Position numbers and translations under genes: made by a program. Of a DNA stretch of 41,134 nucleotides, positions 1 to 40,370 are shown in pieces. This stretch comes from a virus (lineage: Duplodnaviria; Caudoviricetes). The notes below the pieces were generated by a model, which was not told where the DNA came from, did not search any database, and saw only the letters and a program-made list of their open reading frames with translations. The stretch spans positions 1-41,134 of IMG/VR virus record IMGVR_UViG_3300048851_000208, one strand, 5' to 3'. Positions within the stretch are counted from its first letter, which is position 1. Every line of letters starts with the position of its first letter.

Positions 1-468
1 ATGACTACGAAGGCTTACCTGCTTACCGCAATCGCGGCCTTCATTGTCGTCGTCACGGGGTCTGACCTGATCGCGCGAATGACAATCGCGGGAGATACAT
101 TCAGCAATGCCGTTGGCGAGCACTTGTATTGGGCATCGTTGACCATCGTCGGGGTGGTGTTTCTTTTCGTGCCGTTTGGAGGCGCTGCTCTCATCTGTGG
201 TGCCGCAAACAAGCGAGCTAAGACACGCAGTGCTATCGCGTTGTTCATCGTCGCGCTGGCAGCGCTCGGCTATTTTTATTTCGGCGGCTTCCAAGCTTCT
301 CAGCAGGCGATGCTGGACGAGAGATGGACCGCAGCAACACTATCAGTTGGGCTGTTGCCGTTTTTCGTCGGGCTGCCGTTGCTTGGCGTCGTTGCGATTG
401 CGGCGGTGGTTATCGCTCGGGTCGATAGACGGGCGATCGTCGAGGTCTCATCCGCGACCGGCAGCTAA
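1..468 (+). CDS. Multi-pass membrane protein (cassette gene)
   Basis: 155-aa ORF with about 4 hydrophobic helices. Its TAA stop forms the last 3 nt of the left arm of the repeat site at 458-485. Confidence 0.8.
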   Translation: MTTKAYLLTAIAAFIVVVTGSDLIARMTIAGDTFSNAVGEHLYWASLTIVGVVFLFVPFGGAALICGAANKRAKTRSAIALFIVALAALGYFYFGGFQASQQAMLDERWTAATLSVGLLPFFVGLPLLGVVAIAAVVIARVDRRAIVEVSSATGS

Positions 469-581
469 CCACCCATTCCAGTCATCAGGGGTGGTTGAGG
501 CGCTTCCCGAAAGCGGAACGGCAGCTATTACCGCGCCGGTGCCCGAAGGCGGAGTTTCCGCTTACGCCCAATTGCGGACTT
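458..581 (+). repeat. Composite cassette-junction repeat, copy 1 (long form)
   Basis: CCGGCAGCTAA-CCACCC-ATTCCAGTCAT, 24-nt linker, AAAGCGGAA, an extra internal unit, then GTTTCCGCTTA-CGCCCA-ATTGCGGACTT. 469-579 matches 20576-20686 with 1 mismatch. Confidence 0.9.
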
Positions 582-961: not shown

Positions 962-1038
962 AAGTCCGCTTTCCTCCCAATATGGGACGCCGCGGCCGGT
1001 TCTCTGGTTCTTGGAAGCGGACTGTCCAATTACCGCTC
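962..1038 (+). repeat. Composite cassette-junction repeat, copy 2 (right end truncated)
   Basis: AAGTCCGCTTT-CCTCCC-AATATGGGACG, 24-nt linker, GAAGCGGAC, TGTCCAATTA-CCGCTC. Ends 3 nt from the stop codon of the phage gene at 1042. Confidence 0.8.
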
Positions 1039-2389: not shown

Positions 2390-2438
2390 TCGACCCCACC
2401 CACAAGTGTGTGTGTCGGGCTATATTGGTGGGGGTCGA
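2390..2438. other. Inverted repeat / stem-loop downstream of the endolysin
   Basis: TCGACCCCACC (2390-2400) pairs with GGTGGGGGTCGA (2427-2438) with one bulge. Confidence 0.5.
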
Positions 2439-7205: not shown

Positions 7206-7937
7206 TTACGCGGCGGCGGCGTGAAGATACGCTTGATCAAAGTCGGCGACACGCCGGAAGCGATCCCAATCCTGAACCTCGATGGAGCGGCCATCACGCC
7301 GGATCACTCCATCCTCATCCAACTCGCGAAGCATTCGGTTCACATGAACCGATGTCAAACCCGTCGCGTCACCGATTTCTTCCTGCGTAAAAGGTAACTT
7401 CATCCGTTCGGGAGAGCCGAGGCCGGCGGCTTGGCAGCGCACGATGAATTCGCAAAGCATGTGAGCGATGCGGGTTTTCGCATCTCTTCTGCCCACGTTA
7501 AGGACCCACTCGCGAAAGATCGAAGCGTCGATCAAGGTGTCGCGCCAGAACGCCCTTCCAATCATCGGACGCTGCTCGGCTAGTTCGCGCAACGCTGGCA
7601 TGGGAAGCCAGACAACCGTGGCGTCCGAGACAGCCTGTATGTTGTGGTCGGCACGCTCAAGAAAGAGGTGTTGAAGGTCCAGTATGTCGCCGGGGATATG
7701 AAAGGACACGATCTGGCGCGCGCCATCTGCTGCTAACTTGCTCCGAGAAGCAAAGCCATCAACGAGGAGGCAGCACTCCTGGGGCTTAGAGCCTTCTCGC
7801 ACCAAGTATTCGCGCCAAGAGATGCGACTGACGCGGTGCGGCAACGCCGCTACGGCTGCTTCATCTTCGGGACTGAGCGGAGTAAGAAGCCGGAGCTTCC
7901 GAACCAGAGTTGAGAAGGGCTGATCCGCGCTTGTCAT
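7206..7937 (-). CDS. Crp/Fnr family transcriptional regulator
   Basis: cNMP-like domain (GARQIVSFHIPGDILDL) and HTH LPFTQEEIGDATGLTSVHVNRMLREL. Confidence 0.95.
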   Translation of the reverse strand: MTSADQPFSTLVRKLRLLTPLSPEDEAAVAALPHRVSRISWREYLVREGSKPQECCLLVDGFASRSKLAADGARQIVSFHIPGDILDLQHLFLERADHNIQAVSDATVVWLPMPALRELAEQRPMIGRAFWRDTLIDASIFREWVLNVGRRDAKTRIAHMLCEFIVRCQAAGLGSPERMKLPFTQEEIGDATGLTSVHVNRMLRELDEDGVIRRDGRSIEVQDWDRFRRVADFDQAYLHAAAA

Positions 7938-7971
7938 TGATGCCTTGCGTCACGAGTTGCTTCTACGGAAG

Positions 7972-7996
7972 AATGCGCTTCCGCTGAAATCGTTCC
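7972..7996 (-). promoter_or_regulatory. Putative EcfG/SigT (general stress response) promoter of the Crp gene
   Basis: Minus strand reads GGAAC-N16-CATT. Confidence 0.45.
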
Positions 7997-8072
7997 CGAA
8001 ACGATCGTCGCAAGCGCCGCCGCGCTTCATGCGCGTGTTGTCGAGTTCGCACGGGCGGGCTAGCCTTTGCCG

Positions 8073-8735
8073 ATGTGTAATCGAGCGCGCCTTCAGCGAG
8101 AGCCTGACACGCTCTGGGGATCAGCCGCGAAGCTGTTCAGTGAGCGACCCCGCGACAACAGATTCAACCCGGTCGAGCTACGCCCCAAGTCGCGAAACTA
8201 TGTGGTTCGCGAGCAGGATGGCGAGCGTGCCTGGGACGTGATGACGTGGGACGTGCTCGGCGGTCAGGCGGCGTGGCCGATGACGAACGTCCGCAATCTG
8301 AAGCTGCCGCAATGGCGCAAGCTGGCCGAAAGGCCTGAGAACCGCTGCCTTGTGCCGCTGACCGAGTTCGCAGAATTCACGCCCGAGAAGCACGACCTCG
8401 CGGATGGCAAGCCGCCCCTAAAGGGTGAGATGTGGTTCGAAGTGACAGACCAAAACGTGTTTGCCGTTGCGGGGTTCTGGCAGCACACCAAGAATGGTGC
8501 GGGGTTCACGATGGTAACGTGCGCCCCCAACGAGCTGGTCGCGCCTATCCACCCTAAGGCGATGATCACGATCCTCGAACCCGAAGACGTGGATACGTGG
8601 CTGCGCGGCTCATACGACGAGGTGGTGGCGCTTCAGAAGCCCTACGATGCGTCGAAGATGACTGTTCGTGGCCCTGAATTCCCGACGCGGAAGGACCAGA
8701 AGCAAGCCTGGCTCGCCACGCAGGCCGATCCATAG
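8073..8735 (+). CDS. SOS response-associated peptidase (SRAP/HMCES-YedK family)
   Basis: Starts M-C-N-R (catalytic Cys2); motifs RCLVP...FAE, FAVAGFW and PN.LVAPIHPKAM..IL. Confidence 0.92.
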   Translation: MCNRARLQREPDTLWGSAAKLFSERPRDNRFNPVELRPKSRNYVVREQDGERAWDVMTWDVLGGQAAWPMTNVRNLKLPQWRKLAERPENRCLVPLTEFAEFTPEKHDLADGKPPLKGEMWFEVTDQNVFAVAGFWQHTKNGAGFTMVTCAPNELVAPIHPKAMITILEPEDVDTWLRGSYDEVVALQKPYDASKMTVRGPEFPTRKDQKQAWLATQADP

Positions 8736-8834
8736 AATGTGTAAATGTGAACTCAAATCAGTTGCTTAGAGATAAACTGCTGTTTGAGATAACCGATCCG
8801 TCACTCGGGCTTGCGGCCAATGGTGGGATATTCG

Positions 8835-9461
8835 ATGGGATACGAGTTTAGCGGCATTCACGCGAAGTTCGAAAACGCGTTAGACGCGGAGGAAGGCAGC
8901 TCCGATCGCCGCGATGGGCCGCGCCTTGTGACGGTGTATTGCGTCGCGCGAGTGCTCGCCCGCGGCGATCAAGGTCTTGCCAGAGTGTTGAACCTCTCGG
9001 ACGACGGCATGATGCTTTCGCTAAGGCTCGACCTTTTTCTGGGTGACGAAGTGACCGTTGACCTCTCGGAAGCGTGCTCTCTCACCGGCAACGCCGTATG
9101 GCGACAAGGGGACTGGTGTGGCCTGAAGCTCATCGAGCGGATTGACACTCCCGCGCTGCTGAAACGCCTACGTGACGAGCGCCGCGCACCGGGCGCTCGG
9201 CAACTTCGCTTGCCCATAGAGAAGCGTATCCTCGCATCAAGCGAACTGGGCATACAGATAGTTAGACTGCGGGACGTCTCGCAGCGGGGTGCCAAGGTGG
9301 TCCATGATGGCCGCTTTCGTCCCGGCCTTGCGGTCAGATTACATATCAATCCGCAGATCCAACGCCGCGGCGTGGTGCGTTGGTCGCAAGACGGTATAGC
9401 CGGGATCCAGTTGACGGAGCTACTCAGCGTGGATGACTTGGGCTCGGTCAATCTGCTGTAA
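8835..9461 (+). CDS. Tandem PilZ-domain protein
   Basis: RRDGPR with NLSDDG, and RQLR with DVSQRG (RxxxR and D/NxSxxG motifs). Start could be 8820 or 8811. Confidence 0.85.
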   Translation: MGYEFSGIHAKFENALDAEEGSSDRRDGPRLVTVYCVARVLARGDQGLARVLNLSDDGMMLSLRLDLFLGDEVTVDLSEACSLTGNAVWRQGDWCGLKLIERIDTPALLKRLRDERRAPGARQLRLPIEKRILASSELGIQIVRLRDVSQRGAKVVHDGRFRPGLAVRLHINPQIQRRGVVRWSQDGIAGIQLTELLSVDDLGSVNLL

Positions 9462-14967: not shown

Positions 14968-16353
14968 TTAGTTGTTGATGTCCACGAAGAAGGTCGCGCG
15001 AGCGTAGATGTCATCAATGGTGACTTCGATGTTCTTGTAACCCTGACGATAGCGTGTGTTGAACGTCGCATCATCGTCGGGTGCGGAACGAGGGATGCCC
15101 GAAACACGACGCCAGCCGAACCAATGGTCAGGCACTTGCTCTGTTACCTCCGCGCCGTTCTTGAAAAGGCGTGCTTTGAGGGTCGTGCTCTTCGACTGAC
15201 CGACACGGAACACAGTGCCGTTGCTGCTCTCGATGGTGACGTAGAAGCTCTGGCCATCCTCAAGGTAGATCAACCAGTCGAGCGGGTCGCCGGTCAGGAC
15301 GTAGCTGCGCCCATCCATGCTGTTCTTATAGACGGCGTTCTGACGCCATTGATCGCCTAGCTGCGCCTGCGTCGGAGGATTGGCAAACTCGCCTACGAAG
15401 TGAAGGCTAGGCGTGAGGGCGTTGCTGGCGATGGTGCTGATCGATACGGGCGTGCCGTTCACGGGGATCGTCGCGCCCGGCGAAATCAGGCCGTCGCTGC
15501 CGAACATGATGTTGCCCTGGGCATCCCGAACATCGAGACCCTTGCTGTCGATGAACGGAGCCGTGATTAGCTCGCTTAGATCGACCGGCGAAACCTCCGC
15601 CGTCCACCTTCCGCTGACGAGACGGTAGAGCTTGCCGTCCGTCTTAAGGAACACCAATGGGCCGCCGGTCCAGCCCGTTGGATTTGGCAGCACGTCCACA
15701 GTTCGTGTGATGCCCGTGTTCACGGCGGGTGCCACATCGGTGATGTCGATGAGAACGGTTTTGATAGCGCCGCTGCTGGCGCTGAACGGCGACACGTTGT
15801 CCGACGTATCCACCGCCTTGGCCCAGAAGTAGTGCGTTGAGCCGTTCGCTAGGCCGGAGTGGATGTAGCTGCTCTGCGTGCTTGGCGAGGCCGATACAGA
15901 CGCGAGCCGCGTGGCATTCGCACTGTTCGCCGTGCTGCCGCCCCAAATCTCGACATGGGCGAGGTCCGCGTCCGCTGGGTTCGTCCAGGTCATACCGATG
16001 AAGTTGAAGCCGGGTTGCCCGGTAAGGCCAGTAGGGGCAGCGGGCGGAACCGTATCCCGCTCCGTTGCGCGGGAAGCGACCGCACTGAAGAGCGAACGAT
16101 TGCTCGCCTTGTCATAGGCCAGCACCTTAGCTTCGTAGGTCGTGTTGCGGGCGACGGCGAGCCACTCATAGGTGTTGGTGGTCGTGAAGTATTCGGTGAA
16201 CGGACCTGTGCCCTGGCGCACGGAGATGATGTAGCCTGCCAGATCGCTCTCGGTGCGCGGCGCCCACGTCGCTTTTAGCGATGCCGCTGGTGAGGCTGCT
16301 CGTAAGAACGAGGCCGGTGGGAACGCCCGGTGCCGTGGTGTCCAAAAGGCCAC
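14968..16353 (-). CDS. C-terminal part (Fn3/Ig-like domains) of the frameshifted tail tip protein
   Basis: Fn3 motifs LKATW...DLAGY and DTVPPAAPTGL...W.NP.DADLAHVEIW. No credible own start; continues the upstream ORF after a frameshift near 16280. Confidence 0.8.
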   Translation of the reverse strand: MAFWTPRHRAFPPASFLRAASPAASLKATWAPRTESDLAGYIISVRQGTGPFTEYFTTTNTYEWLAVARNTTYEAKVLAYDKASNRSLFSAVASRATERDTVPPAAPTGLTGQPGFNFIGMTWTNPADADLAHVEIWGGSTANSANATRLASVSASPSTQSSYIHSGLANGSTHYFWAKAVDTSDNVSPFSASSGAIKTVLIDITDVAPAVNTGITRTVDVLPNPTGWTGGPLVFLKTDGKLYRLVSGRWTAEVSPVDLSELITAPFIDSKGLDVRDAQGNIMFGSDGLISPGATIPVNGTPVSISTIASNALTPSLHFVGEFANPPTQAQLGDQWRQNAVYKNSMDGRSYVLTGDPLDWLIYLEDGQSFYVTIESSNGTVFRVGQSKSTTLKARLFKNGAEVTEQVPDHWFGWRRVSGIPRSAPDDDATFNTRYRQGYKNIEVTIDDIYARATFFVDINN

Positions 16354-18406
16354 CAGCCTTCAGGTAGTCCAGTTCCTGCCTGATCTCCGTCGCCGGCTTG
16401 CCACCGACTGCGTGCGTGTCCTTGGACGTGTTGTCGCCAGTGACGTCTGCGTTCGGGGCCGGGCGCGTGCCGCTCTCGTCGGTGATGTTCTCCCAATCGG
16501 TGACGACCGTGACGGGAGCGGTGCCGATGGTTGCCGAGACCCAAGGACCGTAGATCGCGTTCGACATGCGGAAGCGCGCACGGACCTCGATGTCGATGCC
16601 GGGCGCGTTGCTGGTGAACGTGAAGATGCCAGCCACGGGATCGTGAAGCGCGGCCTGCTCCGACCAACCCGACACACCCACGGGGCGGCTCTGAATATGG
16701 ATGCCGGAGACACGGCCGCTATCCTCGGGTGTCCACGAGACATGGACTTCGGAGACGTTGTAGTGGTTCGCGCCCTCGTAGCTCTCGCTCGTGAGGCTTA
16801 GGTTCTCCGGCTTCAGGACATCGTTGGGATTGTAGCCCTCGGGGCGGATGTTCGGCGGTAGCGGCTTCTCTTCTCGATCCCACGCATAGATGGCCGCGCT
16901 CTCTTCGCGCAGCGTCATCTGGTAGAACATGTCGTGCGTCTCGGTTTGATCCTCGACGCGGAACAGCTTCGCGTTCCAGCCCTCCTTGGGGATGGTCAGG
17001 GTGACGAGACTGCCGACCTGGGCAGCGAATGCGTTAGGGCCGAACGTCGCGCTGAACTTGCCCGGTGTCTTGTATTCGCGAAGCAGAAATTGCTTGGCGA
17101 TGCGTTGGCAGGTTTCGGCGCGTGAGACGCAGCCAAGATCGAGCGGCATCGTGCGGGGCACCATGTCGGCAAGCGCGGGCTGCTCGATTGGCTCGCCCCA
17201 ATCGCTTAGCTGGTAGAGGTTCGCGGGATCGGCAAAGCGACCGCGAACGATGTTGAAACGCTCGCGCGATGGTGGAGCCGGCGACCACACGTAGGGGCTG
17301 GCGCTGCCGGGAGCGCCGACAAGATCATCGGCGGTCAGTGCGACCTTGGGGCCGGCCGTGTCGTCGTAGCCACCCACAAGTGTGTATGCGCCGCCGACAT
17401 CGACCAGCTTGGTCGAACCCATCGCCGCCGTGATGGCGTTGATTACGGTGTCGTGGCCGTCTGCGGTGCTGAAGATGCCGTCGCACGTGTAACGCTGGAC
17501 GGTATAGCCAGCCTGCGTGGCAACACGCTCTTCGCAGACGTTGGCGAAGGTGCGGAAGCTATCGAGGTCGATGTTGGTGAGCGGAACGCCCATGCCCCAG
17601 ACCAGCTTGCCGTTGATGCGCCAGCCAATGAGGTAAGCGAGCAGGGCGAGGGCCGGATTGCGGCCAATTTCGACGCCGCCGTTGCGCCATCCCCAGGTGT
17701 TTTGATCGGTTGGGCGGTGATTGCCCTGACCGCCGTTGGTGCTGTCGAGACGAGGATCGTAGAGGGGGCAACCCTCCACGATCGTGCGCGTCGCGGACGG
17801 CATGCCGTTCGGCCAAGCGTCGTTGCTCAGCTTCCACGTAAGCGCGATGTAGGCGCAGCCGGTGAAGCTGGCCGTGTTGCGCCAGTAGGTGCCGGAGCCA
17901 GCGGCAAAGCCGTTGCCAGGGCGACCTTCCGTGACCGCGCGAACGCTCTCGAAGCCGTCCTGGTGGCTGATTAGGCCATTGCCGGTCGAGACAAGATCGT
18001 TCTCGACATAGAAGCCCTGAACCGCATTGATCTTGTGCGAAGCGAGCGCGACGACCTGAGCGTAACGGTCCTTCTTCTTGCCGTAGGTTTCGAAGAACCT
18101 GACATCGTTGCCGGCGGCGGTCAGACCGAAGACGATCTTACGCGGGGCAGTCGGATTGACGCTGCCCTGGAGCCTGTCCGCCATTGAGTTGGACATGCTG
18201 GGCGTCTTGCGAAACGGGGTCAGGGCGGCGCTTAGCGCCGTGGTGATCGCCGCACCGATGAGCCAGCTCGTAACGGCGGCAGCCGATACGGTAGCGATGC
18301 CCAGGGAGCCAATGACACTGGCGAGTGCCCCGCCGATCGCGGGGGCGAAGACGACGACCGCAACCGCAATCGCGACGATCGCGACGACCTTGAGGACCTT
18401 CGACAT
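16166..18406 (-). CDS. Central tail tip/hub protein (gpJ-like), N-terminal part
   Basis: PRKIVFG, G.PLYDPR and NPALALLAYL motifs; position after the NlpC/P60 gene. Plausible sequence ends at DTTAPGVPTGL...TSG. Confidence 0.85.
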   Translation of the reverse strand: MSKVLKVVAIVAIAVAVVVFAPAIGGALASVIGSLGIATVSAAAVTSWLIGAAITTALSAALTPFRKTPSMSNSMADRLQGSVNPTAPRKIVFGLTAAGNDVRFFETYGKKKDRYAQVVALASHKINAVQGFYVENDLVSTGNGLISHQDGFESVRAVTEGRPGNGFAAGSGTYWRNTASFTGCAYIALTWKLSNDAWPNGMPSATRTIVEGCPLYDPRLDSTNGGQGNHRPTDQNTWGWRNGGVEIGRNPALALLAYLIGWRINGKLVWGMGVPLTNIDLDSFRTFANVCEERVATQAGYTVQRYTCDGIFSTADGHDTVINAITAAMGSTKLVDVGGAYTLVGGYDDTAGPKVALTADDLVGAPGSASPYVWSPAPPSRERFNIVRGRFADPANLYQLSDWGEPIEQPALADMVPRTMPLDLGCVSRAETCQRIAKQFLLREYKTPGKFSATFGPNAFAAQVGSLVTLTIPKEGWNAKLFRVEDQTETHDMFYQMTLREESAAIYAWDREEKPLPPNIRPEGYNPNDVLKPENLSLTSESYEGANHYNVSEVHVSWTPEDSGRVSGIHIQSRPVGVSGWSEQAALHDPVAGIFTFTSNAPGIDIEVRARFRMSNAIYGPWVSATIGTAPVTVVTDWENITDESGTRPAPNADVTGDNTSKDTHAVGGKPATEIRQELDYLKAGGLLDTTAPGVPTGLVLTSSLTSGIAKSDVGAAHRERSGRLHHLRAPGHRSVHRILHDHQHL

Positions 18407-18891: not shown

Positions 18892-19575
18892 TTACTGGTC
18901 GAAGTTCCAGTTCTTGTTCTGGTTCGCCAGAATGGCGTCGTAAGCGCCACCCCAGAAGCCACCCACGGGACCACCACGCGACGGGGCCGGGGAACCGTTG
19001 GCACAGGCCAGCACGTAGTCCTGGCTGGTATCGGCGGGATCCAATGCGCTCTGGCTCTGGTAGGTCTGCCCGGTGGCTGCGCTAATCAGGCCTGCGTGCC
19101 CCTCGATGCCGAGCGTGAACTTCTGGACGCTGCCGTCATTCGACACTTCAAGGGTGTCCATGCGACCGGTGCGAATGCGTCGAAACGCCCACGTGGCAGG
19201 TGCGCCCGGCGTCGGGCTGGTGATCATGATCGCGCGCCAGAGGGTTGCGGGGCGGGCCTGATACTCGTCGGGGTCCACCATGGCCGCGCTGACTGCGACG
19301 CTGGGATCGCCAGGAAGGCCGAGCGTGACTTTCAGGCTGTCGCTGCCTGCCATGCTCATGTTGTTTTCGCCGATATCCAGGACGACGCCATGAACCAGCG
19401 GGTCGAAGGTCATGTTGTTGAGCAGGCTGTCTGCGCTGCCCGTTACGGTGAGGCTATCTGCGCCTGTCCAGATGCCGATTGTCTCGTTCTTGAAATCCAA
19501 GCGACCAAGGATTGCGGTCGTGATGCCCTTGGCGGCGAGCGCCGCTAGCACCTCGGCGTTCGTGCCGACGCGCAT
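18892..19575 (-). CDS. Minor tail protein (gpL-like position)
   Basis: Synteny between distal tail and NlpC/P60 genes; WTG, GRMD and Q....P.D motifs. Confidence 0.75.
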   Translation of the reverse strand: MRVGTNAEVLAALAAKGITTAILGRLDFKNETIGIWTGADSLTVTGSADSLLNNMTFDPLVHGVVLDIGENNMSMAGSDSLKVTLGLPGDPSVAVSAAMVDPDEYQARPATLWRAIMITSPTPGAPATWAFRRIRTGRMDTLEVSNDGSVQKFTLGIEGHAGLISAATGQTYQSQSALDPADTSQDYVLACANGSPAPSRGGPVGGFWGGAYDAILANQNKNWNFDQ

Positions 19576-20177
19576 TACAGAGCCTCCTTTGCCTGGATGG
19601 TCGGGAAGCTGGGCCGGCGGTCGATATCGAGGGAGTAGCCGTAGCTATCTGCGCTGATGAGACGGAACGTGCCCCTGGGATTGGCGAACTCAATCGCGGT
19701 GCCCGCTGCCTGCGTCTTGCGAACCTGCGGCGTGACTTCCACGAGGCAGCGGCCGTTCGCGTCGGCATAGGCCGGCGCAGACGTGATGCGATGGAGGCGT
19801 TCACCGATTTGGCAATACTGCCCCAGATTTAGCCCTGAGACGGCGCCTGCGGCCCATCCGCCCATGTTGACGGTATTGGCGTAGCTGAACGCCGCTTGGG
19901 CAACTGTGCGCCCTGCGAGGGCAGATTTGAAGCTGTTGCGGGGCGTGTATGTGAAAGAGCCAAGCTGACCGCGAAGGCTGTCGATCCAAGCCTGGATGCG
20001 ATCGGCGTCCGCATGGCTCATGCGCGGCCAATCGAATTCCAGAACCCAATGGTCGGCGTTGCTGACCGTCTGCTGCGCGAAGGTGTGCGGGCTTTCCATC
20101 GCAGCTTGCTTGTGCTGGATGGTTAGCTTCTCTTGTGCCGGTGCTTTCGCCGGAAATGCGATGGGATAAGTGGCCAT
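19575..20177 (-). CDS. Distal tail protein (Dit-like)
   Basis: First tail gene after the tape measure; SP.T..QQ....W and W.DSLRG motifs. Confidence 0.75.
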   Translation of the reverse strand: MATYPIAFPAKAPAQEKLTIQHKQAAMESPHTFAQQTVSNADHWVLEFDWPRMSHADADRIQAWIDSLRGQLGSFTYTPRNSFKSALAGRTVAQAAFSYANTVNMGGWAAGAVSGLNLGQYCQIGERLHRITSAPAYADANGRCLVEVTPQVRKTQAAGTAIEFANPRGTFRLISADSYGYSLDIDRRPSFPTIQAKEAL

Positions 20178-20181
20178 CGCA

Positions 20182-20189
20182 TACTTAGC
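20182..20189 (-). promoter_or_regulatory. Phage promoter motif GCTAAGTA
   Basis: 4 nt before ATG 20177. Confidence 0.75.
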
Positions 20190-20200
20190 ACAATCACGAA

Positions 20201-20236
20201 AAAGCGGACATTCCGCTTACGCCCACTTCTGACATC
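20201..20236 (+). repeat. Cassette-junction repeat (right half)
   Basis: AAAGCGGAC followed by ATTCCGCTTA-CGCCCA-CTTCTGACATC. Confidence 0.8.
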
Positions 20237-20510
20237 AGAGAGGGCTTTGGTTCACCGAACTGTCCTTGAGCGTATGACCCTTGCCGATCTTCTTCGGATA
20301 GCCGATCAGCATGAGGATGCAGACGCCGATCCCGATAGCTATGAACCTCGGGATTGCCTTTGCGGGCTTGTCGGTCACGTAATTCCACGAAAGCAGCGCC
20401 ATCAGGGCACCGAAGCAGAGTATGATGCTTCCAGCGATTATCTTCGCCGATTTGGGATGGGCATCAGCCCATTTCGCCCATCGATAACCTATCCGTTCCG
20501 CATCGCTCAT
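20235..20510 (-). CDS. Small two-helix membrane protein (cassette gene)
   Basis: 91 aa, two hydrophobic helices; stop codon overlaps the end of the repeat. Confidence 0.7.
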   Translation of the reverse strand: MSDAERIGYRWAKWADAHPKSAKIIAGSIILCFGALMALLSWNYVTDKPAKAIPRFIAIGIGVCILMLIGYPKKIGKGHTLKDSSVNQSPL

Positions 20511-20564
20511 TCCGCGATTGTAGCAGCGGAAGGTTAATATCGTGGAGTATCTGCGGATGCCTCA

Positions 20565-20688
20565 ATGTCCGCTTCCCACCCATTCCAGTCATCAGGGGTG
20601 GTTGAGGCGCTTCCCGAAAGCGGAACGGCAGCTATTACCGCGCCGGTGCCCGAAGGCGGAGTTTCCGCTTACGCCCACTTGCGGACGA
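20565..20688 (+). repeat. Composite cassette-junction repeat (long form, near-identical to 458-581)
   Basis: ATGTCCGCTTC-CCACCC-ATTCCAGTCAT ... GTTTCCGCTTA-CGCCCA-CTTGCGGACGA. Confidence 0.9.
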
Positions 20689-20713
20689 CGGCGGTAGCCG
20701 CCACGATCCTCCA

Positions 20714-20965
20714 ATGCTGGACGAGCTTCGCCTTGCGGATTGGTACTGGTTTGTCCTTGCCGTCTGGTGCGTGTTGTTCCTGTCGCTGACCGGCATCCTT
20801 AGCGTAGGGCTCCGGGTGAACCCCTTTCCGTTGCTCTGGACGCTGCTGAGCGGGTGGCCGCAAAACGACTACTTTTCCGCAATCTTTCGCCCCCTCCGCT
20901 GCCTTGCTCCACTGCCGGTTATCTTGCTGCCCTTAGCGGTGCGGCGAAGCAGCGATGTCCGTTAA
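20714..20965 (+). CDS. Small membrane protein (cassette gene)
   Basis: 83 aa, hydrophobic. TAA stop is the last 3 nt of the left arm at 20955-20965, the same register as ORF 1-468. Confidence 0.65.
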   Translation: MLDELRLADWYWFVLAVWCVLFLSLTGILSVGLRVNPFPLLWTLLSGWPQNDYFSAIFRPLRCLAPLPVILLPLAVRRSSDVR

Positions 20966-21042
20966 CCACGACTTGCGGCCGTTCTTGGCCGTCTAAGCGG
21001 CTCCCAAAAGCGGACAGGCTGAAAACGCCCATCATCGGCCTC
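20955..21042 (+). repeat. Composite cassette-junction repeat
   Basis: ATGTCCGTTAA-CCACGA-CTTGCGGCCGT, 24-nt linker, AAAGCGGAC, AGGCTGAAAA-CGCCCA-TCATCGGCCTC. Confidence 0.8.
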
Positions 21043-21114
21043 GGCCGCACCGGCATATACGCGATTTTAGGGCTTGGCAGCGATCAGCAGATTGGATGCC
21101 CTCGATAGGAATAG

Positions 21115-21408
21115 ATGATGCGGCTTCGTAACCGCCCTTGGAAACTACTGCTCTTAACGGCTTTCGCGACGGTTCTTCTGGTTGTTGGCGGTGTTGATAT
21201 TCTCGATGGCGTGGTAGTTCTTCGAAGATATGGTCAGATTAGCAGCCACACCAATTCCGGCATGTTTGCTCTCTATGTGGCTGGATACTGTCTTATGTGC
21301 GTGCTGGTTGGGGTATGCTGGATCATACTAAAGAGTGAGTGGTCACTCGACTATCGTTCGCCGTTGAAACCCCGCTTCCATGATCCAGAGCGAACCCGCC
21401 GCTTCTGA
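21115..21408 (+). CDS. Small two-helix membrane protein (cassette gene)
   Basis: 97 aa, two hydrophobic helices, SD AGGA, visibly lower GC than the flanks. Confidence 0.7.
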   Translation: MMRLRNRPWKLLLLTAFATVLLVVGGVDILDGVVVLRRYGQISSHTNSGMFALYVAGYCLMCVLVGVCWIILKSEWSLDYRSPLKPRFHDPERTRRF

Positions 21409-21417
21409 TCGAATACG

Positions 21418-21479
21418 ACGTCCGCTTTCCTCCCAATCTCGGTCGTAGGTGATAGATCAAGCCGATTCCTGAAGCGGAC
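21418..21479 (+). repeat. Cassette-junction repeat (left part)
   Basis: ACGTCCGCTTT-CCTCCC-AATCTCGGTCG, 25-nt linker, GAAGCGGAC; ends 6 nt before the tape-measure stop codon. Confidence 0.8.
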
Positions 21480-21485
21480 GCCCAT

Positions 21486-24068
21486 TCACATGCGTGGGCG
21501 GCGCAACTCCGCGATGGTGGCGTTCTTCGCGTTCGTGGTGAGCATTGGTGCCATCTCGGCAATTGCCTGAATGGCCATCGCCTTCACAGCGGCCGGATCG
21601 TTGCTGGTGATCGAACCAAAGGTGACGTTTACGCCGCCGACGCTGGAACCCCGAACGTCTTCCAGCTTGTGATTTGGCGTCACGTGGAATGGCGCGTTCA
21701 TTTCCACAACTTCGGGTCCATGCTCGCCAACTAGGTAGCGGCCACGATTGCCGCGACCGCCATTGGCCTTGCCGGTAAGCCCGCCGCTCGCAGCCTTGCT
21801 GATGCCGCCAATGATGCCGCCCAACAGGCCACCGCCACCGCTGTCACCGCCGAATAGCACGCTTCCTAGCGGCTTGATGAGGAGTTGCTGAAGGGCGATG
21901 TCGAGAAGGCCGTCGATAACGGTATCGGCCATGTTCGAGAACGCATCGCCCAGACTGCCGACGCCCTTAATCGCGTCCATCAATCCGCCCTTCAGACCCT
22001 CCAATCCGCGAACCTGAACATCCTCAAGCGCCTCGTTGATTTCGTCTCCGGTGCGGGGGATGCTGTCGAGGTATGCGCCCAGCGGACCCTTGGTCTGCTC
22101 GTCAATCTGCTGCCCCTGGCGCTCTGCCAGCTTGGGAATGAGGGCGAGACGTGCGCGGGCAATCTGCTTCTCGGCTTCCGTGCTGGCGCGGGAGGCGATG
22201 ATCGCCTCAAGGGCCAGCTTCTCTTGCTGGACACGCAGATCAAGCAGGCGGTGTTCGGCGGCGCGGCGATCCTTGGCAGTGCGCGCCATGTTGACGTCCA
22301 GCTGCGCGATCTCGACAGCGTTATCTAAACTGGCACCAACCAGCTTCAATCGCTCTTCGGTCTTGAACGCCTCTTCCTCTAGCGTGATCGCCTGACCACG
22401 ATTGAGCGTGATGCGCTCTTCAATCGCCTTGAGTTCTGCGACCTGCGCGGCGCTGTAACGCTTGCTACCCTCAGGACCGTCTTTGTCGATTTGATCGAGG
22501 CGGCTCTTGCGCTCAACATCGAGTTTCTGGCGTTCGAAGTTGAAGCGCTCCGATGCTACGGATGCCAGATCGGCCTTGCTGTCCAGTTCCTCACGGGCAC
22601 TGCGGTTCAGGTCAGCGACGAACGCTTCCTTGTTGCGGCGCTCCGTCTCTGCCGCGCGTTCCGCTTCACGAGCAGCCTTATCGGCGGCACGCTGCGCCTT
22701 GTTGCGAGCCGTCTCCGCTGCCTTGTCGGCCTTCTCGTCCTTGGGTTTGGGAGGTGTCTTGCCGGTGCCGTGGACGACATTGCGACCGGCTTTGATGTCG
22801 GCATAGACCTTCTTGGAAACGTCCTGAAGTTGCTTGTCGCTTAGACCCTTTCCATCGAACTTCTTATAGTCGTTACCGCCGTTGATGCGGATCGTGCGAA
22901 CAAGGCGATTACGAGCGGATTCGACGCGCGACTTCTGGTAGCCGCGATCGAAGTCGTCGCCCATGTCCCAGTTTTCATCCTTGAGCGGCTTATTGCCGCC
23001 CGTGATGAAGTTCTCCGCACGAGTGCCCAGATTATCGGCCCAGGCGTATGCGTTGTGGGCCTTGTCGATGAAGCGCAGTAGGTTGCCGATGGTCTCGCGA
23101 GTGTATTCCGCATCCTTACGGATCGCAGCCATGACGTTGCTGGAGTTCTCGCCCATGGGGTCGAACACGTTGTCCAATCCCATGAACACGGCACGGATAT
23201 CGACGCCGGCTTCCTCCGCGACCTGAGTGATGAGGTCGATTGCGTCAGTGCCTTCGCCCATCGCCTCAACGATGCCCTCGCTGATGCCTGCGCCGCGGTC
23301 GAACGCTCCAATTAGGTCGTTCAACGCATTCTCCATGAGCGTCTTGGAGTCCTCCCAGGTCTTGGGCAGTTCCTTGAACTCCGCGTCGATCTGCGCGGTC
23401 ATCTTCGTGTTGGTCAGCGCGTCGTAGAGCATCTTGGAGGTCAGCTTGCCGTCCTCGGCCATCTTCTTGAGTTCGCCGCGCGTGACGCCCAGGCTCTCGG
23501 TGAAGAGGCGAGCGAGGCGCGGTGACGCCTCCATGATCTGGCCCAGCTCTTCCCACTGGACGTTCGTGCCGGAGAGCGCCTGACCCATCTGGAGGGAAGC
23601 GGACATCTGCTCTTGCGTGCTGGCCTGACTGACCTTCATCGCCTTCGCAAAGGTCTCGGTGGCACGAGCGTTATCTAGCTGGCTGCGGCCGAGCTCCTTG
23701 GTCGTCGGCATGAACTTGGCATACAGGTCGTTGATGCTCTCGATTTCGCTTCGAGTTTCCTTCGCGATAGCGTTGGTATCGCGCATGGCTTGGCCCTGGT
23801 TGCCAAACTGCGCTGTTGCCAGCTTCATCTGGCTTTCCATCTTCTTGGAAGAGTCCGCGATTTCGAGGAACTTCGCCGCGCCGTCGATGGTCTTGTCCGC
23901 GACGAAAGCCGCTACGAAGCCCTTGACCGCCAGACTAGCGCGATCCATTCCCTTCTCGATTGCCTTGCTGGCGCGGTCGGTGGCTTTGGTTGCGCGCTCA
24001 AGTCCACTTAGGAACGAGGCGCTTTCCAGCGACATGCTGGCGTAGAGTGATCCAATTTGCTGGCCCAT
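21486..24068 (-). CDS. Tail tape measure protein
   Basis: 860 aa, Ala-rich helical; tape-measure N-domain (LQMGQAL...EEL..IME.SPRLA, GELKKMAEDGKLTS); C-terminal YLVGEHGPE. Confidence 0.95.
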   Translation of the reverse strand: MGQQIGSLYASMSLESASFLSGLERATKATDRASKAIEKGMDRASLAVKGFVAAFVADKTIDGAAKFLEIADSSKKMESQMKLATAQFGNQGQAMRDTNAIAKETRSEIESINDLYAKFMPTTKELGRSQLDNARATETFAKAMKVSQASTQEQMSASLQMGQALSGTNVQWEELGQIMEASPRLARLFTESLGVTRGELKKMAEDGKLTSKMLYDALTNTKMTAQIDAEFKELPKTWEDSKTLMENALNDLIGAFDRGAGISEGIVEAMGEGTDAIDLITQVAEEAGVDIRAVFMGLDNVFDPMGENSSNVMAAIRKDAEYTRETIGNLLRFIDKAHNAYAWADNLGTRAENFITGGNKPLKDENWDMGDDFDRGYQKSRVESARNRLVRTIRINGGNDYKKFDGKGLSDKQLQDVSKKVYADIKAGRNVVHGTGKTPPKPKDEKADKAAETARNKAQRAADKAAREAERAAETERRNKEAFVADLNRSAREELDSKADLASVASERFNFERQKLDVERKSRLDQIDKDGPEGSKRYSAAQVAELKAIEERITLNRGQAITLEEEAFKTEERLKLVGASLDNAVEIAQLDVNMARTAKDRRAAEHRLLDLRVQQEKLALEAIIASRASTEAEKQIARARLALIPKLAERQGQQIDEQTKGPLGAYLDSIPRTGDEINEALEDVQVRGLEGLKGGLMDAIKGVGSLGDAFSNMADTVIDGLLDIALQQLLIKPLGSVLFGGDSGGGGLLGGIIGGISKAASGGLTGKANGGRGNRGRYLVGEHGPEVVEMNAPFHVTPNHKLEDVRGSSVGGVNVTFGSITSNDPAAVKAMAIQAIAEMAPMLTTNAKNATIAELRRPRM

Positions 24069-32913: not shown

Positions 32914-32921
32914 TACTTAGC
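32914..32921 (-). promoter_or_regulatory. Phage promoter motif GCTAAGTA
   Basis: 4 nt before terS GTG 32909. Confidence 0.75.
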
Positions 32922-32995
32922 CCTCAGCGCACTAGATGATTGCTTGAGCGCGTTAGCGCAGGCTAAACTAGCCAGAATGCTGTGGTGGAGCCCAT

Positions 32996-34495
32996 ATGGA
33001 CCGTCTTAATCTACTCAAAGGCCTGTCGTTTGGGTCTCAGGTCGCTGAGGAAGAGGTGAACCAGCTTCAAGACTACTTTGTTCAAACGGACCAATGGAGT
33101 CGGATAGCTCGTGGCGATGTGGACATCGTCCGCGGAGAGAAGGGCGCAGGTAAGAGCGCAATATACCTGCTCCTCGACAAATCCCGCGACCTTATGTTCG
33201 ACAGAAACGTTCTTCAGGTAAGTGGCGAGAACCCGCGAGGGACCACGGTCTTTAAAGACCTTCTTTCCGATCCTCCAACGAGCGAGGCCGAGTTCATTGT
33301 TCTTTGGAAGATCTATATCCTAACTATCATTGTCCATAAGCTGCGCGAGTACGGGATCGCGACCGGAAAAATGTCGGCGGTAGTCGGTCCGCTTGAGGAA
33401 GCTGGCTTGCTCGAACGTGAATTAAACCTCGCAGGTCTGTTAAGGCTGGCCCAGAGTTTCACAAGAAGGCTTCTCAAAAGCAAGCTAGAAGCGGGCGTAG
33501 AGTTAGACCCGAATACTGGTACGCCGTCTGGCGTGATTGGCAGAATAGCTCTGGCTGAGCCCAGCCACGACCTTAGGCTCAGGGGTATAACGTCCATTGA
33601 TGGCATGTTCGAAATTGTTAGATCCTCCTTGGAGGAGGCAGGCTATTCAATATGGGTTTTGCTGGACCGACTAGATGTCGCTTTCGCAGAGAGCCATGAG
33701 CTCGAGGCAAATGCGATACGTGCTCTTGTGCGGGTCTATGGAGACCTCCGCGGTATTGACAACATCCATCTTAAGATATTCCTCCGAGAGGACATCTGGA
33801 AGAGAGTAACGTCGGCGGGGCTGCGAGAGGCAAGTCATATAACCCGTTTTGAGATCATGCGGTGGACGACGCCGATGCTGCTTAATCTAACACTTCGGAG
33901 GGTTCTCAGTAACGCGGCGCTAACTGCTGAACTGAAGGTAGACAAGGAGGCAGTGCTCGCCAGTTCTGAGGCCCAAAGTGAACTGTTTGAGCGCATCTTT
34001 CCAACGCAGGTTGAGCAAGGAGAACGAAAAGCAACCACCTTCGATTGGATGGTTGGTCGGTGCGCTGACGGAACAGGTAACACTGCTCCCCGCGAGCTGA
34101 TACACCTTTTGAATTGTATTAAGGACGAGGAAATCAGACGTTTGGAGCGAGGCGAAAACCCACCCGAGGGCGACAAGCTATTCGATCGGTCGGTTTTCAA
34201 ATCAGCTTTGCCGACAGTGTCGACTACTAGACTACACACTTATTTGTACGCCGAGTATCCGCAAGAGAAGCCGTTCTTGGAGAGGTTGAAAGGCGAAAAG
34301 ACTGAGCAGACTGTCGAAAGCCTGTCAGAAATCTGGGGTTTCTCGAAAGAAGAGGTTTTGGCGAAAGCGCAGTCACTCATAGAGCTAGGCTTCTTTCAAG
34401 CCCGCGGAACACGAGCAGAGCCTACCTTCTGGGTCCCGTTTCTGTATCGGGATGCCCTAGACCTAATCCAGGGGAAAGCCGGTGCGGGTAGCTAG
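32996..34495 (+). CDS. P-loop ATPase (Sll1717/FunZ-like), antisense moron, candidate defence gene
   Basis: FG..VAE.E, Walker A GEKGAGKS, Walker B VLLDRLD, KIFLREDI and PRELI motifs; atypical codon usage. Confidence 0.85.
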   Translation: MDRLNLLKGLSFGSQVAEEEVNQLQDYFVQTDQWSRIARGDVDIVRGEKGAGKSAIYLLLDKSRDLMFDRNVLQVSGENPRGTTVFKDLLSDPPTSEAEFIVLWKIYILTIIVHKLREYGIATGKMSAVVGPLEEAGLLERELNLAGLLRLAQSFTRRLLKSKLEAGVELDPNTGTPSGVIGRIALAEPSHDLRLRGITSIDGMFEIVRSSLEEAGYSIWVLLDRLDVAFAESHELEANAIRALVRVYGDLRGIDNIHLKIFLREDIWKRVTSAGLREASHITRFEIMRWTTPMLLNLTLRRVLSNAALTAELKVDKEAVLASSEAQSELFERIFPTQVEQGERKATTFDWMVGRCADGTGNTAPRELIHLLNCIKDEEIRRLERGENPPEGDKLFDRSVFKSALPTVSTTRLHTYLYAEYPQEKPFLERLKGEKTEQTVESLSEIWGFSKEEVLAKAQSLIELGFFQARGTRAEPTFWVPFLYRDALDLIQGKAGAGS

Positions 34496-34514
34496 ATTTG
34501 CCAGGTATTTTAAT

Positions 34515-34650: not shown

Positions 34651-34718
34651 TCCAGGCGCGTGTGGCCCCTTACAGGGCATCTGCGGGGCGTGCGGAGGGG
34701 AGCGCAAGCTGTCGGAGC

Positions 34719-34779
34719 GTCCACTTTTCGTAGCGGCGTTGAACCATGCGAATGACCGGAGCGGGTGGATACCAGCCGT
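34719..34779 (-). repeat. Cassette-junction repeat (left part, minus strand)
   Basis: Minus: ACGGCTGGTAT-CCACCC-GCTCCGGTCAT, 24-nt linker, AAAGTGGAC. Confidence 0.75.
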
Positions 34780-34785
34780 CCGCGC

Positions 34786-35133
34786 TCACGTGGAATGAGT
34801 GACGCGGAAGCCTGCTTGGAGCGGTTGGACTTCAATGAAGTCTCCTTCGACGGTGTTTCCGGCACATCGCTCGGCGCGTTCGCAGGCAGTGCCGATCCGA
34901 CGTTCCGTTGCGCGGCGAAACGCACTCTCGCAGACAAGCGGCATCTTAACTAGAACGATGTAAATGCTGTCGAAGCCGGGTGAACGGTCGGGCGAGTCAG
35001 CGTTCAAGTTGCGAACGGTCGCACCGTCGCAGAGCGCTAGCCCCGTAACTTCATTGAAGTAGCTAATCGTCTCTGGCCGGCTTTCGCACGACAGCAGCAG
35101 TGGGCTGATCAGCAGCAAAGCAGAAAGGCGCAT
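34786..35133 (-). CDS. Putative lipoprotein (cassette gene)
   Basis: MRLSALLLISPLLLS-C lipobox; SD AAAGG; bracketed by repeat sites. Confidence 0.75.
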   Translation of the reverse strand: MRLSALLLISPLLLSCESRPETISYFNEVTGLALCDGATVRNLNADSPDRSPGFDSIYIVLVKMPLVCESAFRRATERRIGTACERAERCAGNTVEGDFIEVQPLQAGFRVTHST

Positions 35134-35157
35134 CACCTTTCTTTTACGATGGCGCGA

Positions 35158-35243
35158 GTGTCCGCAAGTGGGCGGCAGCGGAAGGTCCGATTTCGGGAGC
35201 GGCGGCAAGAAGGCGGTCGGCCTAAATCGGGGAAAGCGGACGC
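35158..35243 (-). repeat. Composite cassette-junction repeat (complete, minus strand)
   Basis: Minus: GCGTCCGCTTT-CCCCGA-TTTAGGCCGAC, 22-nt linker, AAATCGGAC, CTTCCGCTGC-CGCCCA-CTTGCGGACAC. Confidence 0.85.
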
Positions 35244-39757: not shown

Positions 39758-39821
39758 GCCTGTGCTTGACACTCTGGTAAGCCTGTGTGCCTATCCTCCA
39801 CCCACACTTGTGGAGGACACT

Positions 39822-40370
39822 ATGGTCAGCTTTCTTAGTTTCGTTGATGACATGCTGGGCACCGGCTTCGACGCACCAAAGGACGAGAACGGTCCTCGTC
39901 GTAAGCGCCTCATCGCGATCATCGACAAGGCCAAGGAGCAGCGCAACGATGGCAAGACGCCACCCACGCGGGCCTGGAAGACCGGCCACAACAGCGCGAT
40001 CAGCTTCGCGCCTAAGTTGAACGGCAACCCGGTGCTGATCGGTGGCAAGGCGACCAATTACATCGCCGCGGACAAGTTCGACGCCGCCATGGATGCGTTG
40101 AAGAAGGACGTTGAGGCCGGCTTACTTGATGCGGAGATCAAGGCCGCACTCGAAGGCGGCGCGCCCGCTGGCGGGGTAGCGAAGCGCACTCGTGCGCCTG
40201 CGTCGGGTCTGGGCAACAAAGCGCAGCCCGACAACGCGGAGTGGATGGCCAAGTTCGTAGAGAAGTATGGCGCTGCGCCGAGCGCCGATTACGTCCCGAA
40301 CAGCAAGGGCACCAAGTGGGTCAGCGCAAAGAACGCAGAACGGGGGAAGAAGGCCAAGGGCGTAAGCTGA
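39822..40370 (+). CDS. DUF6641-like protein, paralogue 2
   Basis: SD GGAGG before ATG 39822; motif VEAGLLDAEI. Confidence 0.75.
   Translation: MVSFLSFVDDMLGTGFDAPKDENGPRRKRLIAIIDKAKEQRNDGKTPPTRAWKTGHNSAISFAPKLNGNPVLIGGKATNYIAADKFDAAMDALKKDVEAGLLDAEIKAALEGGAPAGGVAKRTRAPASGLGNKAQPDNAEWMAKFVEKYGAAPSADYVPNSKGTKWVSAKNAERGKKAKGVS

What the first reader, a model, noticed from the sequence alone, without database searches (positions are those of the whole stretch)
20201..21479. Integron/pdif-like gene-cassette system built from non-canonical 11-6-11 sites, at three loci
Seen: small membrane or lipoprotein genes at 1-1038, 20201-21479 and 34719-35243 are each bracketed by 28-bp sites with roughly inverted 11-bp arms (about NNGTCCGCTWW / MTTGCGGACNN) around a 6-bp spacer. 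One side has a type-2 site with spacer CGCCCA (554-581, 20209-20236, 20661-20688, 21015-21042, minus 35185-35158). The other has a type-1 site with spacer CCACCC, CCTCCC, CCACGA or CCCCGA (458-485, 962-989, 20565-20592, 20955-20982, 21418-21445, minus 35243-35216, minus 34779-34752). Each type-1 site is followed by a 22-25-nt variable linker and an AAAGCGGAC-like box, which in complete junctions overlaps the next type-2 site, giving a ~86-bp junction. Units measure 436, 384, 322, 431 and 434 bp and each carries one unrelated gene. Two genes end with TAA at the same position inside the left arm. One gene is inverted relative to the sites. Known: 11-6-11 is the geometry of tyrosine-recombinase sites (dif/pdif), and one-gene units with the stop inside the site are typical of integron cassettes, but these sites resemble neither attC nor dif. 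Inference: a distinct site-specific cassette capture/exchange system whose recombinase acts in trans, since none is in the window. It may supply variable envelope proteins such as superinfection-exclusion factors. I recall GTCCGC...GCGGAC repeats being common in alphaproteobacterial genomes but know of no mechanistic description.
Basis: partly seen in the sequence, partly recalled or inferred. Interest (0 to 1): 0.92.

Follow-up and report, generated by a model that had tools for sequence, protein, structure and literature searches.

The report
Swappable gene cassettes in Sphingomonas prophage
A prophage related to those of Sphingomonas carries six small membrane-type genes between two kinds of short repeated DNA sites, and two of these genes turn up elsewhere with breakpoints at the sites, which points to a cassette-swapping system, likely driven by a tiny host recombinase, in a bacterial class reported to lack integrons.

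Summary
The repeats are real, although the geometry is not a uniform 11-6-11. Type-2 (A) sites are two 11-bp arms around CGCCCA. Type-1 (B) sites are ~63-bp composites with three arms. Units read A-gene-B in one direction.

Three footprints show movement at the sites. Two junctions share 102 identical bases, running spacer to spacer. The lipoprotein unit has a 78%-identical chromosomal twin whose homology starts and stops at the sites. The likely source sample holds a second copy of the 83-aa unit that diverges at both spacers.

The same sites form arrays in Sphingomonas chromosomes and sit in other phages. They are neither attC nor dif, and the arms show no hairpin covariation.

The likely enzyme is a 210-aa tyrosine recombinase that has only a catalytic domain. 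Sites lie beside 26 of 60 copies, against 2 of 144 control windows. It is absent from this provirus, does not co-occur with sites genome-wide (P=0.86), and is untested. Related prophages vary at the same slot without sites. Cargo function is unknown.

This scan reported the system before on other DNA. My searches found no paper describing it; one probably relevant 2004 paper was unavailable.

The parts
1..468 (+). Cargo gene 1, 155 aa, 4 hydrophobic segments; its stop TAA is the last 3 bases of the B-site left arm
   Evidence: no family hit
458..520 (+). Type-1/B composite site: arm 458-468, spacer CCACCC, arm 475-485, 24-nt link, third arm 510-520
   Evidence: (26.3 bits)
469..570 (+). 102-nt junction block identical to 20576-20677; starts at the first base of the B spacer, ends at the last base of the A spacer; includes a gene-less module at ~518-553
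   Evidence: double-depth contig; 77% homologue in G521
554..581 (+). Type-2/A site, spacer CGCCCA
   Evidence: 31.1 bits
607..951 (+). Cargo gene 2, 114 aa, 2 hydrophobic segments; ATG 26 nt after the A site
962..1024 (+). B composite with 7-nt spacer; third arm 1014-1024 ends locus 1
   Evidence: 26.1
19575..20177 (-). Distal tail protein (Dit), flank of locus 2
   Evidence: phrog_1302
20201..20236 (+). Lone third arm (20201-20211) overlapping a partly decayed A site (20209-20236) by 3 nt; left edge of locus 2
   Evidence: (9.5 bits)
20235..20510 (-). Cargo gene 3, 91 aa, 2 hydrophobic segments, inverted relative to the sites
20565..20627 (+). B composite (spacer CCACCC; third arm 20617-20627)
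   Evidence: (29.4)
20661..20688 (+). A site, spacer CGCCCA
   Evidence: 27.3
20714..20965 (+). Cargo gene 4, 83 aa; ATG 26 nt after A, stop in the B left arm; a second copy of 20678-20969 with other flanks is in run X1
   Evidence: 95% homologue P0016
20955..21017 (+). B composite (spacer CCACGA; third arm 21007-21017)
   Evidence: 23.0; 34.2
21015..21042 (+). Decayed A site; an intact A site stands at the equivalent place in a contig of run X2
21115..21408 (+). Cargo gene 5, 97 aa, 2 hydrophobic segments
21418..21481 (+). B composite with 7-nt spacer; third arm 21471-21481 ends 4 nt before the tape-measure stop
   Evidence: 29.2
21486..24068 (-). Tape measure protein, flank of locus 2
34717..34779 (-). 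B composite ending locus 3 (third arm 34727-34717)
   Evidence: 16.4; 20.4
34786..35133 (-). Cargo gene 6, 115-aa predicted lipoprotein (LLLSC lipobox read by eye); the unit has a 78%-identical twin in G417 bounded by the sites
35158..35185 (-). A site, spacer CGCCCA
   Evidence: 26.7
35183..35243 (-). B composite with 5-nt spacer whose third arm overlaps the A site by 3 nt
   Evidence: 22.0

Best explanation
The six genes sit in one-gene units bounded by two classes of short arm-spacer-arm DNA sites, and two of the units are found elsewhere with breakpoints at those sites; a 210-residue tyrosine recombinase supplied from another locus likely binds the arms as double-stranded DNA and is predicted to exchange strands at the ~6-bp spacer. 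Because A spacers (CGCCCA) and B spacers (CCACCA/CCACCC) differ, A would pair with A and B with B. Two crossovers, one per class and probably through a cointegrate as proposed for dif modules, would swap one gene for another. One crossover between like sites would excise or insert a circle. The prophage would thus pick up single genes from the chromosomal cassette pool of its sphingomonad host. SHOWN: the sites, their polarity, the breakpoints, the chromosomal arrays, the local link to the recombinase. INFERRED: the enzyme, the strand-exchange rule, current activity, the cargo function.
For: (1) 469-570 and 20576-20677 are 102/102 identical, from the first base of the B spacer to the last base of the A spacer, with four unrelated flanking genes. 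(2) The lipoprotein unit matches G417 at 341/435 nt; homology starts inside the A left arm and ends 2 nt past the B right arm; the neighbours there are non-phage ORFs (1 of 301 genomes). (3) In run X1, contig 20678-20969 has depth 71.5 against 38-41 for the prophage. Other contigs give a different left arm and upstream sequence, and a different sequence from the fifth base of the B spacer. (4) Diverged unit pairs in other genomes start and end at sites: L281/L360 82%, +3/+2; L302/L304 79%, +4/-2. (5) Across 116 Sphingomonas loci, one-gene-sized intervals were 62 A-B, 50 A-A, 29 B-B, 10 B-A and 8 unclassed. Short links were 21 B-A and 0 A-B of 28. ATG lies 22-29 nt after the site in 46 of 114 A-start units, against 17 in a control window. 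13 of 58 genes ending at B stop exactly at the end of the left arm. (6) Sites lie within 400 nt of 26 of 60 copies of the 210-aa recombinase (30 of 120 windows), against 2 of 144 windows beside other integrases (P=2e-9), 0-2 in shuffles, and 0 of 14 for a second small recombinase family. In 5 loci the composite starts 95-98 nt before the start codon. (7) Catalytic residues: R61, K89, H158, R161 in 60 of 60, H184 59 of 59, Y193 58 of 59. (8) 13 other viral loci carry the site; 12 of 13 have two or more sites and 12 of 13 lie beside recognisable phage genes.
Against: The recombinase is not in this provirus. It does not co-occur with sites at genome level: 23 of 48 against 47 of 103, P=0.86, a noisy test because the reversed control pattern also gave 35 hits. 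34 of 60 recombinase loci show no site within 400 nt. The site-rich genomes G109, G063 and G047 gave at most fragments or distant integrases with this query. Several window sites are decayed, so the loci may be relics. Of 22 related prophage loci, 12 are empty and 10 (6 distinct) carry other morons at the tape-measure/Dit slot without sites, so that slot varies by other means too. The two copies of the 83-aa unit differ inside their spacers, so strict spacer identity is not shown. X1 may be the source of the window. No excised circle was observed.
Confidence: 0.7

Rival explanations
1. The cassettes and crossovers are real, but another recombinase, not the 210-aa family, acts on the sites; the 210-aa gene is itself just a frequent cassette.
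For: No genome-level co-occurrence. 34 of 60 loci lack nearby sites. Site-rich genomes lack an intact copy with this query. The protein lacks a core-binding domain: XerC/D profiles match only from residue ~40.
Against: Fixed position of the composite before its start codon in 5 loci. 30 of 120 windows against 2 of 144 for other integrases and 0 of 28 for the 192-aa family. Fragments of it lie at array ends in G109 and G119.
Confidence: 0.13
2. The repeats are dispersed REP- or MITE-like elements, and genes are swapped by ordinary homologous recombination between them.
For: The 124-bp junction recurs as a block in G521 at 77%. A REP-like palindrome, judged by eye, abuts the B site in G417. The sites are common in genomes.
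Against: Left and right halves travel with their genes and break at the spacers. B-A polarity is strict and start and stop positions are fixed. Flanking direct repeats are 0-4 nt with +-3 slack, so there is no consistent target duplication. Shared identity between most sites is too short and patchy for RecA (inference).
Confidence: 0.09
3. The ~63-bp composite works like attC: one strand folds and an IntI-type enzyme recombines it.
For: Its size and its place at gene ends resemble attC. Some junctions fold with arm 1 paired to arm 3.
Against: Own-arm complementarity is 5.43 of 11 against 5.42 for shuffled partners in 150 sites (28-bp cores only). Folds differ between copies. No GTTRRRY core in 7 of 8 junctions. 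The linked enzyme scores 17-20 bits against an IntI cut-off of 265.
Confidence: 0.04
4. Host XerCD acts on the sites, as on pdif.
For: Roughly 11-6-11 geometry; spacer-class logic like dif modules.
Against: At least 3-4 mismatches to the 9-nt XerD-arm core in all 8 junctions. G+C is 0.51-0.67 against 0.18 for the Novosphingobium dif. Both arms share one consensus and sites are in direct orientation.
Confidence: 0.04

Closest known systems
Acinetobacter dif modules (pdif sites, XerCD; PMC13141974, passages read)
   Same: 28-bp two-arm sites with a 6-bp spacer bound accessory genes; crossovers fall at the sites; matching spacers govern which sites react; single modules can be replaced via two crossovers; the enzyme acts in trans.
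   Different: The arms are G+C-rich and unlike XerC/XerD boxes; both arms share one consensus; sites are in direct rather than alternating inverted order; B sites have a third arm; hosts are sphingomonad chromosomes and prophages; the candidate enzyme is a 210-aa catalytic-domain-only protein.
Integrons and CALINs (IntI, attI, attC; PMC4889954, passages read)
   Same: Arrays of single small genes in one direction, stop codons inside the downstream site, a recombinase gene beside some arrays, arrays without an enzyme.
   Different: No attC core, no arm covariation, no IntI; each unit has a site at both ends, in two spacer classes; found in Alphaproteobacteria, where that paper found no integron, In0 or CALIN in 243 genomes.
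Inverted repeats flanking the Z/fun insert of P2-like coliphages (Nilsson, Karlsson and Haggard-Ljungquist 2004, PMID 12949155; only the title was seen, in a reference list; content from earlier scan notes and recall)
   Same: The same arm consensus, with other spacers (GTGCCA, TCGCTC), is common in lower-G+C viral contigs, and one such region matches E. coli phages including Peduovirus P24C9. This may be the same site family.
   Different: I could not read the paper, so identity of the repeats is unverified. As recalled, it names no enzyme and no polar one-gene arrays.
FimB/FimE-type short tyrosine invertases (that they lack a core-binding domain is recalled)
   Same: About 200-aa tyrosine recombinases; weak profile matches.
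   Different: Scores of 19-28 bits are far below the cut-offs of 221-222; they invert one promoter segment rather than move cassettes.

Membership tests
Integron / CALIN | attC core GTTRRRY and inverse core at the site ends | tested here: not met
   absent from 7 of 8 junctions; one internal match in the eighth
Integron / CALIN | Conserved single-strand hairpin (paired boxes, extrahelical bases) | tested here: not met
   no arm covariation in 150 sites (28-bp cores); folds differ among copies
Integron / CALIN | IntI integrase | tested here: not met
   none in the provirus; linked enzyme 17-20 bits against cut-off 265
Integron / CALIN | Score against the IntegronFinder attC covariance model | not testable with these tools
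   Model not held; the Rfam scan gave 0 matches but is not that test
Integron / CALIN | Directional arrays of single-gene units | tested here: met
dif / pdif modules | Conserved XerD arm and low G+C | tested here: not met
   3-4 mismatches in 9; G+C 0.51-0.67
dif / pdif modules | 11-6-11 geometry with crossover at the spacer | tested here: met
   for A and most B cores; spacers of 5 and 7 also occur
dif / pdif modules | Alternating inverted sites (C and D modules) | tested here: not met
   All sites within each window locus are co-oriented; arrays are mostly co-oriented
dif / pdif modules | Dependence on XerCD | not testable with these tools
   Needs mutants
REP / MITE | Moves as an intact unit with target duplication | tested here: not met
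   halves exchanged at spacers; flanking repeats 0-4 nt, inconsistent
REP / MITE | GTAG-type tag next to a palindrome (feature recalled) | tested here: inconclusive
   GTAG/CTAC in 2 of 8 junctions, at no fixed place
P2 Z/fun-type flanking repeats | Sequence identity to the published repeats | not testable with these tools
   Paper not held; indirect support
Tyrosine recombinases (candidate enzyme) | R-K-H-R-H-Y catalytic set | tested here: met
   set defined in PMC8138268

The most novel reading that the evidence does not exclude
Proteobacteria have a third widespread gene-cassette system beside integrons and dif modules. A recombinase with only a catalytic domain uses two mutually incompatible spacer classes to perform natural recombinase-mediated cassette exchange, moving single envelope-protein genes between chromosomal arrays and prophages. 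In Alphaproteobacteria it fills the role of the missing integrons.
Probability: 0.55. Interest if true: 0.9.

Novelty: new variant of a known kind. Interest (0 to 1): 0.76.

Why it matters
Cury et al. 2016 (PMC4889954) call the complete absence of integrons in Alphaproteobacteria 'extremely puzzling'. A separate cassette system with its own sites and enzyme would help explain it and is directly testable with reporter plasmids. It would give a defined route by which prophages acquire morons, a marker for mining small unannotated membrane proteins, and a 210-aa recombinase with two orthogonal spacer classes as a possible cassette-exchange tool. This window adds three cassette loci in one prophage and a near-identical second copy of one unit in the same sample.

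Tried and rejected
SEQUENCE SEARCHES. Rfam: 0 matches. Junction against plasmids: none. Single-protein Dit scan of viral contigs: none; an alignment then worked. The 83-aa and 155-aa cargo proteins were not found in viral contigs. DNA of locus 2 against 301 genomes matched only sites or junctions and one short internal stretch, with no whole cargo gene. The ESM Atlas gave unnamed clusters only for the 155-aa protein.

RECOMBINASE CANDIDATES. The first, strict scan of 30 of 54 integrase loci found 1 weak site. The 192-aa recombinase family was rejected as the enzyme: 0 of 14 loci had a site within 400 nt, 1 of 14 within 1.5 kb. A single-sequence AlphaFold model of the 210-aa protein had pLDDT 36 and was not used.

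SEQUENCING RUNS. No RNA holder was listed. The X3 relative gives no cover over the cassettes; no contig joins across locus 2, so I do not count it as an empty site. All runs are contigs, so rare circles cannot be seen.

IDEAS DROPPED. The attC-like hairpin. The idea that the sites explain the slot's variability.

LITERATURE. Searches (listings and abstract starts) found no description of these sites or this enzyme. Passages were read in PMC13100340, PMC4889954, PMC2731167, PMC3448106, PMC8138268 and PMC13141974. PMID 12949155 is not held. No supplements were opened, so a subgroup listing in the datasets of PMC8138268 cannot be excluded. The library lacks most subscription papers.

Full report
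CONTEXT. The window is an 88%-complete provirus record with an HK97-like head and lambda-like tail module. The named relatives of its Dit protein are mostly Sphingomonas. Locus 2 lies between tape measure and Dit, locus 3 between an HNH gene and a 499-aa ATPase moron upstream of terminase, and locus 1 at the contig start. No tyrosine recombinase domain was found in the record.

OBSERVATION. A matrix built from 150 sites in Sphingomonas genome loci scores 7 of 12 at >=16 bits, with a null maximum of 1 in 30 Markov sequences; the seeds were selected with a window-derived pattern and the window was excluded from training. Arm mapping shows that type-1 (B) sites are three-arm composites: arm, 5-7-nt spacer, inverted arm, 23-24 nt, and a further copy of the inverted arm. 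That model recovers all 7 B sites, and its 12 hits >=20 bits all fall in the three loci. The repeating unit is A-gene-B-link-third arm, and the third arm overlaps the next A by 3 nt at three junctions. Two junctions carry an extra gene-less module and are 124 bp; that long junction recurs at 77% in G521.

EVIDENCE OF MOVEMENT AT THE SITES. First, 469-570 and 20576-20677 are 102 of 102 identical. Identity begins at the first base of the B spacer and ends at the last base of the A spacer, with four unrelated genes around. Second, the lipoprotein has one homologue in 301 genomes. The DNA match (341/435) starts in the A left arm and ends 2 nt past the B right arm, among non-phage ORFs. Third, in run X1, which may be the source sample, 20678-20969 has depth 71.5 against 38-41 for the prophage and differs at 4 bases. 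One contig gives a different upstream sequence and left arm, and another diverges from the fifth base of the B spacer. I read this as a second, ~99% identical copy, probably on the host chromosome (inference from depth and provirus status). Another X1 contig joins an A-type left half to the right arm, link and third arm of window 20971-21016, and an X2 contig has an intact A site where the window's 21015 site is decayed. Fourth, diverged unit pairs in other genomes start and stop at sites (L281/L360, L302/L304). Other rows of that table are the same locus fetched repeatedly or have ends offset because neighbouring sites were called differently.

GENOME-WIDE ANATOMY. A strict A pattern gave 26 matches in 5 genomes and 0 for the reversed control. 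A broader pattern hit 70 of 151 Sphingomonas genomes with up to 26 per genome; the control gave 35 hits in all and at most 2 per genome. G109 holds 30 sites in about 10 kb, largely A-gene-B-(18-20 nt)-A. Over 116 loci chosen because they hold sites, one-gene-sized intervals were 62 A-B, 50 A-A, 29 B-B, 10 B-A and 8 unclassed, and short links were 21 B-A and 0 A-B of 28. Start codons cluster 22-29 nt after A (46 of 114, control 17), and 13 of 58 genes ending at B stop at the last base of its left arm, as two window genes do. Thirteen other viral loci carry the Sphingomonas-type site; 12 lie beside recognisable phage genes, and one A-gene-B unit lies upstream of HNH and terminase as here. The arm family is therefore probably pan-proteobacterial.

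THE ENZYME. Notes from this scan pointed to a ~200-aa recombinase, so I tested it. A 210-aa family that matches XerC/D only from residue ~40 occurs in 48 of 151 Sphingomonas and 63 of 251 family-level genomes. Its catalytic residues are intact. I examined 60 loci, the 30 best of each search. Sites or composites lie within 400 nt of 26 of them (30 of 120 windows), against 2 of 144 windows beside 24 other integrases, 0-2 in shuffles, and 0 of 14 loci of a second small family. In five loci the composite starts 95-98 nt before the start codon. In G129 and G104 an A-gene-B array runs away from the gene's 5' end. Against the link: no genome-level co-occurrence (23 of 48 against 47 of 103, hand-counted; P=0.86), 34 of 60 loci without a detected site, and site-rich genomes with only fragments. 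The control windows were tiles across the loci, not exact gene flanks, and related loci are not independent, so P=2e-9 overstates certainty.

MECHANISM. Arms show no within-site covariation (5.43 against 5.42), so they behave as double-stranded binding boxes. The breakpoints point to exchange at the spacer. [quoted passage not shown] A x A plus B x B would then replace a single gene, and one like-site crossover would excise or insert. The many A-A and B-B units and the spacer differences between the two 83-aa copies show the rule is not strict. The role of the third arm is unknown; an accessory binding site, like the direct repeats of attI (recalled), is a guess. Several window sites are decayed and may no longer work.

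WHAT THE SITES DO NOT EXPLAIN. Among 22 related prophage loci, the tape-measure/Dit gap is 13-53 nt in 12 and holds other morons in 10 (6 distinct), none with these sites. Of 25 related loci scanned, only one weak site, seen in two records, was found, elsewhere. The slot is a general hotspot. No close empty allele was obtained. The X3 relative diverges at 20190 into a sequence holding an A-like spacer core (read by eye), which is suggestive only.

CARGO. Five proteins have 1-4 hydrophobic segments and one has a lipobox; none resembles another. None matches PHROGs, Pfam or PADLOC, and the only NCBIfam hit is a weak one far below its cut-off. Many genomic units also look like membrane or secreted proteins (50 of 158 with a strongly hydrophobic 19-mer). 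Superinfection exclusion is plausible but untested.

COMPARISON AND VERDICT. It works like a cross between dif modules and integrons but fails membership of both: no attC core, hairpin or IntI; no XerD arm, high G+C, direct orientation. PMC4889954 (passages) reports no integrons, In0 or CALIN in 243 alphaproteobacterial genomes. Passages found in PMC8138268 list no catalytic-domain-only subgroup; its datasets were not opened. Nine paper searches found no description. The 2004 P2 paper may describe the enterobacterial repeats but was not held. The scan has reported this system several times on other DNA, and three enterobacterial notes are marked 'in doubt'; those notes are leads, not support. 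Verdict: a real cassette system (about 0.9); the named enzyme and two-class exchange about 0.7; a new variant of tyrosine-recombinase cassette exchange; interest 0.76.

Noticed in passing
L003-L048, tape-measure/Dit and tail-227aa/DUF6950 junctions; window 20175-20190: In related prophages, unrelated morons at both tail slots end just upstream of a conserved CTAAGTA motif a few bases before the next start codon. It may be a translation or late-transcription signal that fixes moron boundaries.
   Followed up: no
window 32996-34495: 499-aa Sll1717-family P-loop ATPase moron (NF047389; weak DS41 anti-phage and PDC-M28C hits), lower G+C, opposite to the late genes and next to locus 3. A contig of run X3 joins 32921 to 34503.
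   Followed up: partly
window 2396-2420, 2893-2917, 17370-17394 and inverted at ~39798-39829: A repeated CCACCCACAAGTGTG motif with three direct and one inverted copy; possibly operator sites.
   Followed up: no
window 7206-9461: CRP-family regulator, SRAP and PilZ-domain genes clustered as morons beyond the tail genes.
   Followed up: no
window 14968-18406: The central tail fibre (J-like) is in two overlapping ORFs of 746 and 461 aa, both with phrog_31 hits; a frameshift or split gene.
   Followed up: no
L352:1879-1975 (G417): A REP-like inverted pair begins exactly at the end of the B-site right arm, sharing its last five bases.
   Followed up: no
L301, L378-L391: A second small (192-aa) tyrosine recombinase occurs in 13 of 151 Sphingomonas genomes; in L301 it lies beside a small conserved ORF and a tRNA-like stretch (by eye). 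It is not linked to these sites.
   Followed up: partly
L322-L351, upstream of the 210-aa recombinase: A conserved short inverted repeat (GGCCA...GGCC) precedes the ribosome-binding site in most family-level copies; a possible autoregulatory site.
   Followed up: no
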